From the NCBI GenBank assembly GCA_951406725.2, contig OX597828.1, positions 10,044,001 to 10,108,000 of the forward strand: a DNA stretch of 64,000 nt. The letters are read 5' to 3'. The notes beneath the pieces were generated by a model. It searched no databases and was not told the origin of the DNA. It worked only from the letters and a program-made list of their open reading frames with translations. The position numbers and the translations under genes were made by a program. This document shows positions 2,457 through 60,692 of the stretch, one piece after another. The stretch comes from Octopus vulgaris. Taxonomy: Eukaryota. The number at the start of each line of letters is the position of its first letter. The stretch's first letter is position 1.

Positions 2457-2510
2457 TATCGGACCCGATTTCAGAGTTAGTTCGTAAGAACCTTTCCCTC
2501 GTCAGTGATA
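2457..2510 (-). ncRNA. Type I hammerhead ribozyme motif (minimal stem III)
   Basis: Minus strand reads TATCA-CTGACGA-gggaaag-GTTC-ttac-GAAC-taactct-GAAA-TCGGG-TC-CGATA. Core is canonical, cleavage triplet is GUC, stem I TATC/GATA has one proximal mismatch. Confidence 0.6.
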
Positions 2511-3074
2511 AGTGCGGCAAAGGAATACATGAAATACTTACTCATACCCATGGAAGAAGCAAACACTTAGCCACGAGCACAATTATGTACACCAAATATA
2601 TCGAAAATAGAAATTCTCCAGCCCATTCGAGACACGTGCGATTCGAACTGAAAACCCTCAAAGAGTGAGAGAGTCCGGAAGTGAACACTATATTAGTGTA
2701 TTATACCTATGTTTGTGTGCCTCTCTGTTTTTCCCCATCATCGCTTGACAACGGGTGATAGTTTGTTTACGTTGCAGTAATTTAGCAGTTCGACCTCGAA
2801 TGCGTAAGTTGAAAAATCTCCACTTAACTGAGATTTAGCTCTAGCTTGACTATATATGTCTCTCTGGGAACACAGACATTATAAAAACCGTGAATATTAT
2901 TGATATCATCAACAAAGTCAGATAAATGAAATTTCAAGGAAATAATGATAATACAGTATTAAAAATATCTAGTGTTTAATTCCAAACAAGTGTAGACATA
3001 GAACAGAAGTTAATCTTGTTAGATATTATCAATGGAAGTGATTCACCAAAGTTGTCTAGAATTAAAAATGAATC

Positions 3075-3236
3075 TTTCAAATTTTGGTACATTCAAGCCA
3101 ATGCTGAACTGGTACTTGTTTTATCGGCTCTGACATGATGGAAAATGTTGGCCACGGCAGAATATGAACCCAGAGCGTAAATCCGCTGGAAAATATGGTG
3201 CTAAGCAGTTTCGCCGACCTGTTAATGATTCAGCCA
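3075..3236 (-). mobile_element. Degenerate tRNA-derived SINE (family of 32406/52818/59028)
   Basis: Reverse complement resembles GGCTGAATCATTAACAGG...GGTTCATATTCTGCCGTGG...CGATAAAACAAGTACCAG of the better copies. Confidence 0.5.
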
Positions 3237-3539
3237 AATGTGAGTTTCACAAGAAAGAACATACTTCACTGGTTGACTTAAAACACAAGATTCACTACCA
3301 ATTCCATTGTTTTACTTTACAAACTTTTGAGCAATACAAGGAATATAGGTTGCCTTACATTTCTTACTTCGATACTGTTTTTAGATTATATAATTACAGA
3401 TTCTCTTATTTACTAACTGCCATGATAATCTCAGTTAACTGGCGTTTTTAATCTCTCCCGATTAAAAACAGACAAGCACACACACGCGCACGCGCGTATG
3501 TATGCATGTATATAACTATGTAATCTACAGAAACCCGTA

Positions 3540-3748
3540 TCCTTAACGTAGTCCGAAGGAGATTCAGTATGACATGTAATGTTACAAGATTGACCCTTTG
3601 AATTAAAGGTACAACTTACTTCGTCAAGCTGACTAGAGCAACGTGAAATATAGTGTCTTGTCCAAGGACATAGCGTATTGCTATGTAATCGAACTCACGA
3701 CAATACAAGCGTGAGCTGAATGCCCTAACACTTAGCCACGCGCCTTCA
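3540..3748 (-). mobile_element. tRNA-derived SINE with CORE-like body and tail A
   Basis: Minus strand TGAAGGCGCGTGGCTAAGTGTTAGGG...GAGTTCGATT head, then GTCCTTGGACAAGACACT...TTTCACGTTGCTCTAGTC body. Tail is similar to 1545-1625. Confidence 0.7.
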
Positions 3749-58100: not shown

Positions 58101-59027
58101 TCTATAAAGATCCTATGATATTTTCTCAACAAGTTGACGATGCTAATATTTTTTGTCGTTGCTTTTGTTCTGTTTCAGGACAAACTTAATATTATTGGCG
58201 AATGATGAATGTAAATTCAGTTGTGTTCGATTTTATTTAATGCTTAGTAATTCTTGGACTGCCTCAACTATTTATGTCTATTTTAAAGCAGTTAGGAGGA
58301 TTTGAAAAAAATTATCCGTTATGTTTTGCATGAGGTATGTCTATGTAGAGACTTTCTCGCTGGTATGCGACGTTTAGCGTGCAATGTGCCGAGAATGATA
58401 AAGCAGCATACGGTATTTAATTATATGCATAAGTATTCATATCCAGTTTTATTAGAATTAAATATGTCATCCAATGAATCATGAGAAATATATTTGAATA
58501 GATTTAATAAAATATAAATAATTTTCACTTGGTATGGGTAATTGTACAGATAGTTAAATCCTTCCTCGAGATTTTGAAGTAAAGTTTTTAAGTGAAGAGT
58601 ATTGGTGGACCCTCGTCGGCTCGATGCATAATGAGGTCACTGGAATCAAAACCTGAAATGGCCCCAACCACACCAGGCAAGACCATGAAACAAGTATTTG
58701 AAACTGCAATATCCATATACTTTATTAGATGATGCAATGTGATTTGAGGGAGATGGTTGTGATATTTCTAACATGTTGTGCGACAGTTCATTTGTAGGAT
58801 CATTAGAGAAGGCCCAGTAATAAACGTGGAAGATAATTATTCATAAATGCATTATTTGCATATCTTTAATGAAGTTATTTAAATTTGTATTTTCAGTGAG
58901 ATAACGTTTACACAAGCAATAGCGTCAACATCAATTTCGTTTTAGTTTGCTCTTGAGGCTGTTTAGAACTTAGCTTCGAAAGAATTTCTCATGAGGCTTC
59001 CTAGTAATTAATATATCCGGGAAGATA

Positions 59028-59234
59028 AGACAGCGAGCTAGCAGAAACGTTGGCATGCCGGGAAAATGCAGCATATTCTCCGTCTTTACGTTCTCAGTTC
59101 CCGTTCCTCTGAGGTCAACTTTGCCTTTTATCCTTTCGGGATTGATATAAGTATCAGTCGAACACGAAGATCAATGTAATCGACTTTCTCCCTCCCTTAG
59201 CACATTACTGACTTTGTGCTAAAATTTGAAACCA
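59028..59234 (+). mobile_element. tRNA-derived SINE (Nin/Deu-like domain)
   Basis: GCGAGCTAGCAGAAACGTTGGCATGCCGGG...GAGGTCAACTTTGCCTTTTATCCTTTCGGG...AAAATTTGAAACCA. Confidence 0.8.
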
Positions 59235-60611
59235 ATATATTCGGCAAGGTACTGGTGGTGTGACATGTGGAAATCGGAACAGTAATTTCTTATAGGTTGA
59301 ACTTAGAAGAATCTTCATTGAGCCGATATATACTAAGTATTTGCCACATAATATTATTACAAACATGTTTAATATATGTTTAATATATGATTTGAAAGTG
59401 TTATCCCAATTCACTATTAATGAAGAAAAAACTAATTTCCTTGCGCGACTTTAACCAGAATAATTTGCATCTATTGCAAACGACATACCCTAGCGTTCCG
59501 GGTATCTTTACTTGTACTGAGTGAAAACAACTACCGATATCCGCATTCGACGTAAAATAAAAAGTTAACTGCGGTCATGATGTGGATGATATGGGGATAA
59601 ATGACTTCAATAAATACAGATAATTACCTGTAATATGTATTGAGGAACGTGAGCATATGAATGTGAAAGATAACCTAAGGAGGAACTAAACCAAAAAAAC
59701 ATCTCAAGGTGACCGACTAGATGCAGCAGGATATTTTATAAATACAAATATGAGTTTTGTCTGATATCTAAGATGGTAAAGATACATAGATCATGTGATC
59801 ATATCCGATTTACGTAAGCGTACTCTCTATCTAGCGTGCTATATCTGAAAACAGGGTTTATCTCTTAAGTATACATTTTATGAGCACGGAACTTATACGA
59901 TGTAAATCATCAAAGCTTTACAATAATTCGCGCATTGAATTGTTTGGTTTATCCATTGTGTTTCTAACGTTTTGTTCTTCAGAAACATATTGCAAATCCG
60001 TACTACTAGCAAGAAGAGCAGTACTAATGACTGTTTCTGCAATGATACCAAAGTAGATTAAAGAAGCAGAAGTGCCTGGTGTTAAAACAAGTGTTAAAAC
60101 AAGTGGTACTCTTAGCACACTGCGCAAAACCGATCCAGTTTTACTGAGAGTTTCCATAAATCTTTGTGCACACAATTTCATTGCAAGAATTAACACAACA
60201 CGAGTCCATTGCCCCGCGATTTTGGGATTGATCATTAAACGTATGCTTCACGTGACATTCAAAGCCATGACTACAGAAAACATTGCTCTATTTATGTTGA
60301 CGAAAAATAACAAACGTATATACACACAAACTAAAATAAACATCTGTCTATCAATACTTGTATATAAATGAACATATTACATCATGTAAGTTTAAATGAT
60401 GTATGTTCGTAGGATGAACATACAAATATTTAAGTTGCATAGAACTTATTTTAATTTTCGTTTATCCAGCCATTCGTTTATATACATATGTGTATGTTTC
60501 TATGTGAGCGCGGATGGGCGGATGCACAGCTCTGTATATATATATATATATATATATATATATATATATATATATATATATATATATATATATATATATA
60601 TATATATACTG

Positions 60612-60692
60612 GAGCAAAAACTGTCCGGCCAACGGCAACGGGAAACTCAGAGTAACAGGTTTTGTTGAATTTTCTGCTGCTTTAAATAAAGT
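60612..60692 (+). repeat. Single arm of the 13557-13714 palindrome family, inside (TA)n
   Basis: AGCAAAAACTGTCCGGCCAACGGCAACGGGAAACTCAGAGTAACAGGTTTTGTTGAATTTTCTGCTGCTTTAAATAAAG. The hammerhead core is mutated. Confidence 0.88.

What the first reader, a model, noticed from the sequence alone, without database searches (positions are those of the whole stretch)
2457..60692. A hidden repertoire of hammerhead-ribozyme mini-elements living in (TA)n tracts and folding into inverted repeats
Seen: about nine sequence-unrelated short repeats share one secondary architecture: stem I, C(U/C)G(A/U)NGA, stem II, GAAA, a very short or palindromic stem III (ACGT, ACCGGT, ACTCAGAGT, ACGGTATATCGT), then NUH. 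They lie at 2457, 5880, 7141, 13357/17220, 13590/13645/60620, 14137/20141, 14538, 17636 and 45598. Most abut (TA)n, and several come with an inverted partial or full copy. Known: Penelope-like elements carry minimal type I hammerheads in their pseudo-LTRs, thought to act as dimers, and often leave inverted terminal repeats. Inference: many co-existing non-coding, ribozyme-bearing families (retrozyme-like or solo pLTRs) are mobilised by Penelope RT into TA microsatellites, and they account for most palindromes here. The hammerhead-PLE link itself is established. The density (more than one motif per 10 kb), the family diversity and the core variants in a cephalopod are what may be undescribed.
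Basis: partly seen in the sequence, partly recalled or inferred. Interest (0 to 1): 0.82.

Follow-up and report, generated by a model that had tools for sequence, protein, structure and literature searches.

The report
Penelope hammerhead remnants in TA repeats
This animal DNA holds several short repeats with hammerhead-ribozyme-shaped motifs pointing into (TA)n tracts; they are likely leftover ends of Penelope-like jumping genes, a known kind, but one roughly 190-base unit is extremely abundant and carries a changed, probably weakened, catalytic core whose cutting is untested.

Summary
Mostly real, mostly known. A minimal-hammerhead scan gave 9 strong hits against 0.21 per shuffle. Five more motifs stand on family or paired-copy homology. 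5880, 17636 and 14538 score at noise level. Nine of 13 listed sites have (TA)≥5 within 150 nt downstream (random 15%).

The Penelope link is direct for one family: a broken GIY-YIG endonuclease end lies about 830 nt upstream of the 20141 motif, on the same strand. This architecture, dispersal and inversion are published (PMC4209133, PMC3846280, PMC8557442).

Not found in my searches: family 13357/17220 is a discrete ~190-nt unit with a fixed 5' edge, 4–10×10^4-fold the flank's summed depth. Its core is CCGACGA (U4C) in all four runs laid, with an apparent compensatory stem-I change in a distant organism. U4C also occurs in other Penelope ends.

Not supported: retrozyme-type tandems, 'most palindromes' (4, at most 6, of 11), Rfam membership. 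Cleavage is untested and the species unverified. The scan noted Penelope hammerheads in other genomes, not this one.

The parts
13294..13481 (+). Family A unit, near full length; hammerhead 13357-13391 (core CCGACGA, stem II GAGC/GCTC in family majority, helix III ACGT, H17 at 13387); TA tract follows
17123..17305 (-). Family A unit, 5'-shortened, (TA)n on both sides; hammerhead 17254-17220 equals the run majority across the motif
1871..1950 (+).
13557..13635 (-). Family B left arm, intact core (13623), helix III ACTCAGAGT, abuts (TA)n
13636..13785 (+). Family B right arm (core 13648, CCGA) plus ~70-nt one-sided extension before (TA)n; head-to-head with the left arm, 74 of 79 identical
60609..60691 (+). 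Family B single ~83-nt copy between two (TA)n tracts, core decayed (3 changes)
13856..14003 (-). Family C left arm (core 13966, CTGT), full tail to (TA)n
14105..14194 (+). Family C right arm (core 14142, CTGT), tail cut short at (TA)n; 86 of 90 identical to the left arm
20050..21293 (-). 5'-truncated Penelope-like copy: endonuclease remnant, ~830-nt CA-rich spacer, family C hammerhead (20171-20144), ~95-nt tail; contiguity inferred from strand and the absence of an intervening TA tract or dispersed repeat
21003..21252 (-). Broken C-terminal half of a GIY-YIG endonuclease (one stop, frameshifted)
   Evidence: profile E 1.6e-8
45462..45826 (+). Family E copy between two (TA)n tracts; best motif 45598-45704 (8-bp stem I, long stem II, 5-bp palindromic helix III, intact core)
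2300..2686 (-). Family H, ~390-nt insertion in the TA run of an older repeat; hammerhead 2511-2451 with intact core; B-box-like motif in the 5' part
7091..7374 (.). Family F inverted pair; left arm motif 7242-7142 (-) with A9 changed, right arm holds only the 3' half
14275..14642 (.). Family D head-to-head pair (177 of 182 identical) between (TA)n tracts; doubtful motif (TTGATAA core, GCA for GAA)
5881..5931 (-). Listed site 5880: noise-level motif, unproven
   Evidence: 9.9
17638..17703 (+). Listed site 17636: noise-level motif, unproven
   Evidence: 9.4

Best explanation
These hammerhead-shaped motifs, each followed by a short tail and usually (TA)n, are likely the pseudo-LTR ends of several Penelope-like retroelement families, predicted to have been copied into TA tracts by the elements' own endonuclease and reverse transcriptase. 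Inferred steps: the GIY-YIG nuclease cuts AT-rich DNA; reverse transcription starts inside the RNA about 30-130 nt downstream of the hammerhead and stops early, leaving motif + tail + (TA)n. Priming from both cut ends, or fold-back, would give the head-to-head pairs with a one-sided extension. Family C is shown to trail an endonuclease remnant. Family A is shown to be a discrete ~190-nt unit and is most likely a non-autonomous pLTR-only derivative copied in trans (about 0.5; run-off cDNA from a partner's 5' end about 0.35). Copies that span the cleavage site must come from uncut or rejoined RNA, so a slow U4C core that needs a dimer would be tolerated or favoured. Most genomic copies are probably inert.
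For: Shown: enrichment over shuffles and the reversed window. Orientation toward TA. Empty-site insertion in TA. Endonuclease remnant co-oriented with family C (22 of 55 database proteins hit 21.0-21.3 kb and no other place in the window passed E 0.05). Its relatives carry Pfam GIY-YIG and, two search steps out, RT. Family A has a sharp 5' edge and core conservation in organisms A, C and F; F's depth peaks on the motif and shows G13357A with an inferred C13391T. The same motif type lies downstream of an endonuclease end in 13 of 121 outside loci, about 100 nt away in 12 of them; a 14th has only an antisense profile hit. From papers: consensus, single motifs, opposite-strand pairs and dimer requirement (PMC4209133); inverted pLTRs, tails and solo pLTRs (PMC3846280); TA bias (PMC8557442); internal RT start and uncut RNA as dominant substrate (PMC11167929); U4C lowers activity in vitro (PMC3088659).
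Against: No RT remnant in the window, and no coding link for families A, B, D, E, F or H. Rfam finds no hammerhead. Of 14 motifs folded alone, only 45590-45712 is clearly more stable than shuffles (z -3.40). G10.1-C11.1 holds only in A and C. No target-site duplication can be read in TA tracts. The U4C and CTGT cores fail the published CUGANGA consensus. Depth sums are not copy numbers. The scan was tuned after seeing the sites.
Confidence: 0.8

Rival explanations
1. Family A (and B) are not self-propagating: they are short run-off cDNAs made when the RT starts at the 5' pLTR-ORF junction of an autonomous element and reaches the transcript's start.
For: A fixed 5' edge is equally explained by a transcription start. 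PMC11167929 maps RT initiation 85-92 nt after the cleavage site, close to A's ~95-nt tail. B copies also start at nearly one point.
Against: The listed loose ends before A's 5' edge are mixed AT-rich letters (agreement 0.52 and 0.53 in the two DNA runs that list them), with no shared upstream element sequence; 441 further loose ends were not shown.
Confidence: 0.3
2. The units are retrozyme-like: they are processed by paired hammerheads into circular RNAs that are reverse-transcribed.
For: Non-coding, hammerhead-bearing, similar size; one head-to-tail joint each in X2 and X23. A preprint derives animal retrozymes from pLTRs (10.64898/2026.07.22.740005).
Against: No tandem unit in the window. 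The joints have depths of 38.8 and 17.4 against element depths in the millions. A single ACGT-helix motif has a self-duplex of only -1.7 kcal/mol.
Confidence: 0.07
3. The motifs are chance matches inside AT-rich repeats and hairpins.
For: Three listed sites score within or below the shuffle range. Three high scorers are probably chance, one being the antisense of endonuclease codons. Rfam is blank.
Against: 9 against 0.21 strong hits, strand-specific TA orientation, cross-organism core conservation, and the endonuclease link.
Confidence: 0.03
4. The inverted pairs arose after insertion, by (TA)n-triggered breakage and fold-back or by arm-to-arm conversion, not during retrotransposition.
For: Both arms of C and D share apparent core defects, and C's arms are 96% alike against 72% to the other C copy. 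A SINE pair at 45956-46442 forms a similar palindrome around (TA)n without a hammerhead.
Against: Head-to-head orientation with a one-sided extension is the published Penelope signature (PMC3846280, PMC8557442). B's arms differ from each other as much as from the distant copy (74, 74 and 73 of 79).
Confidence: 0.2

Closest known systems
Minimal hammerheads of metazoan Penelope-like elements (Cervera & de la Pena 2014, PMC4209133)
   Same: Type I layout, extra base after A9, palindromic ACGU or longer helix III, U-rich upstream, many families per genome, mostly single motifs, opposite-strand pairs 100-700 bp apart, U3-A8 variant; molluscs (Lottia, Crassostrea) are in its alignment.
   Different: No cephalopod term in the supplement searched (one file could not be searched). 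Family A has C at position 4 and family C has U at position 6, outside the CUGANGA descriptor. One family's depth suggests more copies than the 2,000-9,000 motifs per genome reported there, though the measures differ.
EN+ Penelope-like elements of Neptune/Nematis type (PMC8557442; PMC3846280)
   Same: C-terminal GIY-YIG, 5' truncation, head-to-head inverted pLTR, one-sided tail, microsatellite targets; database relatives of the remnant carry the upstream cysteine linker.
   Different: The window holds only the nuclease's last ~80 codons, with no RT and no linker, so the clade is inferred from relatives.
PAc Poseidon element studied in vitro (PMC11167929)
   Same: Insertions end about 90 nt past the hammerhead, with an optional tail; AT-rich targets; uncut RNA is used.
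   Different: PAc's ORF starts within the hammerhead; no such frame was seen after the motifs here.
Non-LTR retrozymes and schistosome Sm-alpha (PMC7229834; 10.64898/2026.07.22.740005; PMC6765202)
   Same: Short, non-coding, type I hammerhead, thought to depend on a Penelope RT.
   Different: Those are tandem arrays with canonical motifs and circular RNAs; these are dispersed monomers or inverted pairs in (TA)n.

Membership tests
PLE minimal hammerhead | Core CUGANGA...GAAA...UH | tested here: inconclusive
   Intact at 3 of 13 sites (2457, 13590, 45598). Family A majority is CCGACGA in 4 of 4 runs, so it is not met for A. Both C insertions have CTGT.
PLE minimal hammerhead | Palindromic helix III | tested here: met
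   Palindromic or near-palindromic helix III in A, B, C, E and H; partly built into the scan.
PLE minimal hammerhead | Extra base between positions 9 and 10.1, and a G10.1-C11.1 pair | tested here: inconclusive
   Both are met in A and C. B has C-G, H has G-U, E and F have A-U without the extra base.
PLE minimal hammerhead | Family consensus with core conservation and compensatory change | tested here: met
   Family A only: no listed difference >=12% at 11 other core positions in 4 runs; stem I G-C to A-U in organism F, the 3' side read from loose ends.
PLE minimal hammerhead | Lies in the pLTR behind an RT-EN frame | tested here: inconclusive
   Met for one family C copy (nuclease only); no coding link for the others.
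PLE minimal hammerhead | Self-cleavage as a dimer or with protein | not testable with these tools
   Only contigs were available; they show no molecule ends.
Rfam hammerhead families | Covariance-model score at gathering threshold | tested here: not met
   0 matches; none at E<=10 in 3 regions.
EN+ Penelope-like element | C-terminal GIY-YIG endonuclease | tested here: met
   Remnant at 21252-21009 (-), profile E 1.6e-8; hit P0007 passes Pfam GIY-YIG.
EN+ Penelope-like element | Reverse transcriptase domain | tested here: not met
   None in 276 stop-free frames of >=56 aa or by profile; expected for 5'-truncated copies.
EN+ Penelope-like element | Head-to-head inverted pLTR with a one-sided tail | tested here: met
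   B (~70-nt extension), D (~30-nt extension), C and F pairs.
EN+ Penelope-like element | Microsatellite / AT-rich target | tested here: met
   9 of 13 sites against 14.6% random; empty site.
Non-LTR retrozyme | Head-to-tail tandem units, each with a complete hammerhead | tested here: not met
   None in the window; single-contig joints only.
Non-LTR retrozyme | Abundant circular RNA | not testable with these tools
   No run on record as RNA holds the stretch.
tRNA-derived SINE with hammerhead (Sm-alpha-like) | Pol III A and B boxes | tested here: inconclusive
   ARAGORN found 0 genes. A B-box-like word in family H was seen by eye only; none was seen in A.

The most novel reading that the evidence does not exclude
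Family A is a SINE-like parasite of Penelope elements: a 190-nt pseudo-LTR that reached tens of thousands of copies across several related species. It keeps its hammerhead under selection but with a throttled U4C core, because only uncut RNA can be copied. Such families are invisible to standard CUGANGA and Rfam searches, so this lineage may hold one of the largest uncounted ribozyme loads in animals.
Probability: 0.3. Interest if true: 0.62.

Novelty: new variant of a known kind. Interest (0 to 1): 0.4.

Why it matters
What the hammerhead does in the Penelope cycle is open: in vitro it is dispensable for insertion (PMC11167929). A very abundant family that conserves the fold between organisms yet fixes a core change known to slow cleavage gives a natural test of whether selection wants weak, regulated cutting. 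It also shows that descriptor-based counts miss U4C families, and it offers an identity for some short repeats now filed as unclassified. The rest of the finding is an ordinary case of a published pattern in a host group where I found no report of it.

Tried and rejected
No whole genome is held, so there are no genome-wide counts.

A strict scan found only 2457, because it allowed no extra base and only short stem II. Generic repeat finding was swamped by microsatellites. The whole-window Rfam E-value list showed 150 of 418 rows, none of them a hammerhead.

The 21194(+) hit (score 23.9) was first taken as a missed family and then rejected: it is the reverse complement of endonuclease codons. 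1676 lies in or at the end of a SINE-like repeat and 63307 overlaps a microsatellite palindrome; both are treated as chance.

A family A tail pattern found 0 matches in metagenomes. None of these loci matched window sequence at E 1e-6. I did not build a covariance model from them, because the pattern came from the window and the test would be circular.

No RNA holder is listed. X23 is only guessed to be RNA; its coverage of family A, and its relatively higher depth 5' of the cleavage site, are not used as evidence. The word-index protein search with the broken nuclease found nothing. Four of the 9 phmmer hits are not nucleases: three cytochrome c proteins, likely through a chance CxxCH, and one unrelated. 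Monomer fold energies left long loops unpaired and the E row was one base off; only the A, B and H self-duplex values are used.

Lunse et al. 2017 on PLE hammerhead variants is not held and may already report U4C.
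Full report
Setting. The window is 33% G+C and dense in microsatellites.

Are the motifs there? 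I wrote a log-odds scan for type I hammerheads with a short palindromic helix III and ran it on both strands, on the reversed window and on 100 block dinucleotide shuffles. At score 18 or more there are 9 hits, against a shuffle mean of 0.21 (max 2) and 0 reversed. The scan was written after I saw the sites, so the controls, not the scores, carry the weight. 20141 and 7141 score about 15. 14137, 5880 and 17636 score 9-10, where shuffles give about 14 hits each. 14538 and 60620 are not listed at threshold 6. Homology rescues 60620 (family B) and 14137 with its unlisted twin at 13966 (family C). 5880, 17636 and 14538 stay unproven. Only 2457, 13590 and 45598 have a fully canonical core. Rfam gives nothing at gathering score and no hammerhead at E up to 10 in three motif regions. 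Folded alone, only the 45598 region clearly beats its shuffles (1 of 14), which is unsurprising for motifs this small.

Relation to (TA)n. Read on the motif's strand, 9 of the 13 listed sites have at least five perfect TA units within 150 nt downstream; 14.6% of random positions do. Among the nine top-scoring hits, 8 have TA within 200 nt downstream and 3 upstream, though three of the nine are probably chance hits. The 2457 element is a ~390-nt insertion in the short TA run of an older repeat whose paralogue at 4381-4409 is empty.

Inverted repeats. Self-comparison gives 13 local inverted pairs at E about 1e-5 or better; merging three rows of one 8.1-9.3 kb cluster leaves 11 loci. Four carry these families (B, C, D, F), all head-to-head, and B and D have a one-sided extension. 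Two more (18592-18825, 47755-48059) begin at an AAACGT word and may be related. The others are a SINE pair, transposon ends and unclassified repeats. 'Most palindromes' is therefore not shown. A transcript through both arms would likely bury the motif in a long hairpin (inference).

Link to Penelope proteins. Pfam found no RT or GIY-YIG in 276 of 494 stop-free frames (those with at least 56 non-repetitive residues). Reading upstream of 20141 by eye showed a broken nuclease end on the same strand. A phmmer search with one frame of it gave 9 hits. Five align as nuclease C-termini, one of them passing Pfam GIY-YIG. From that hit I reached one protein with GIY-YIG and from it 49 longer ones, most with an RT domain. 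Searched back, 22 of 55 proteins hit 21.0-21.3 kb and no other place passed E 0.05; a profile gave E 1.6e-8 there, while the best reversed-window hit was 9.5e-4 in low-complexity sequence. So 21293-20050 reads as nuclease end, CA-rich spacer, hammerhead, tail: a 5'-truncated element. The same analysis exposed the high-scoring 21194(+) hit as antisense coding sequence.

Family A across runs. Twenty-four runs were listed, none on record as RNA; I laid 4 on 13100-13485. The unique flank has depth 54.5 (X2) and 54.9 (X6). The body of the element reaches 2.4-5.6 and 3.2-4.7 million, about 4-10 x 10^4-fold. The tool warns that this is no copy number, so I take it as an order of magnitude; it fits three copies in 64 kb. 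Depth rises abruptly at 13294, and loose ends there show mixed AT-rich letters before a shared 9-base start, the same start as the copy at 1871. Position 4 of the core is C in the majority, with T at 9, 13, 14 and 12% in the four runs, at a CpG site. U4C is thus the family state and T is likely decay. The window's T at 13372 is private; the family has a 4-bp stem II. In the distant organism F, depth peaks on the motif (79-88 thousand against 0.6-29 thousand on either side, with a second peak of 52-59 thousand in the tail). There 13357 is A in 57%, and loose ends put T at 13391, an apparent G-C to A-U change in stem I. Head-to-tail joints appear in one contig in X2 and one in X23.

Is U4C special to this genome? 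No. A pattern with the same stem II found 122 matches in 121 outside loci: 75 CTGA, 45 CCGA, 1 CTGT and 1 CCGT. Fourteen loci (9 CTGA, 5 CCGA) have a Penelope-profile hit, 13 in sense upstream of the motif; two of the five CCGA loci are near duplicates. Family C's CTGT core is seen in two independent insertions but its consensus was not tested.

Mechanism. Shown: motif, orientation, TA target, one nuclease link, and family A's discrete form and core. Inferred: target-primed copying from an internal start downstream of the hammerhead, early stopping, and inversion during insertion. PMC11167929 (parts 1-2 of 4 read) reports internal RT starts 85-92 nt after the cleavage site, AT-rich cutting on both strands, protein-assisted cleavage and uncut RNA as the dominant substrate. 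That matches the 26-131 nt distances to TA here. Copies spanning the cleavage site need uncut or rejoined template, so slow cores cost little. Helix III self-duplex energies are -1.7 (A), -7.4 (B) and -15.0 (H) kcal/mol, so A would depend most on help.

Literature seen. PMC4209133: parts 1-2 of 4, a supplement term search, and part 2 of 3 of supplement file 2; file 1 was not searchable. It describes the consensus, thousands of single motifs per genome, families, opposite-strand pairs, U3-A8 and low dimer activity. Passages only: PMC8557442, PMC3846280, PMC3088659 (U4C lowers in vitro activity but supports a viroid), PMC6765202, PMC7229834, PMC8967140, PMC8969392, PMC6155905. PMC13282606: part 1 of 3 and a term search; it lists 31 recently active Penelope-like families in Octopus vulgaris and has no 'hammerhead' or 'ribozyme' in its main text. 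Preprint 10.64898/2026.07.22.740005: part 1 of 5; its supplements are closed. Eight library searches (listings) showed no report of cephalopod hammerheads or of a U4C Penelope family. Lunse et al. 2017 is not held, and repeat databases were not searchable, so absence from print is weakly established.

Earlier scan notes. 358 notes in at least 29 genomes mention hammerhead and Penelope (8 shown). None were found for this genome or for family A's sequence.

Verdict. A real feature and a known kind. The family A unit, with its abundance and fixed U4C core, is the part worth a follow-up. Interest 0.4.

Noticed in passing
window 21194-21225 (+): A convincing-looking hammerhead (score 23.9) that is the reverse complement of Penelope endonuclease codons; a trap for motif scans.
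   Followed up: yes
window 47755-48110: Tail-to-tail pair (125 of 130 identical) around (TA)n with a one-sided ~20-nt extension; GAAACGTC about 140 nt from the tract and two CTGANGA words upstream on the minus strand. A possible further family.
   Followed up: partly
window 18592-18825: Head-to-head pair (99 of 106 identical) whose arms both begin at an ACGTT word; possibly a Penelope end cut at the hammerhead.
   Followed up: partly
window 2640-2690 (-): B-box-like word and tRNA-like spacing in the 5' part of the 2457 element; it could be a SINE head joined to a hammerhead-bearing tail.
   Followed up: no
window 45956-46442: SINE-like repeat (tRNA-derived by recollection) duplicated tail-to-tail around (TA)n, 189 of 199 identical; relatives at 1362-1542 and 32187-32280.
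   Followed up: no
window 16168-17021: Tc1/mariner-like remnant with terminal inverted repeats; the transposase motifs are recalled and Pfam did not confirm them.
   Followed up: partly
window 51956-53173 (-): LINE 3' end with a zf-RVT domain (Pfam E 4.5e-7) among (ATAG)n tracts.
   Followed up: partly
window 45170-45351: 182 consecutive T; possibly an assembly artefact.
   Followed up: no
window 37914-39314: About 700-bp tandem duplication, 94% identical.
   Followed up: no
window 8142-9344: Cluster of short inverted fragments of one repeat, without TA tracts or a good hammerhead; MITE-like.
   Followed up: no
L121:601-627: A contig titled as a bacterial MAG holds a CCGA hammerhead behind a Penelope RT-EN end (E 2.7e-53); probably animal DNA in the bin.
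   Followed up: partly
L071:604-689: Head-to-head pair of complete minimal hammerheads in an outside locus, the same layout as family B.
   Followed up: no
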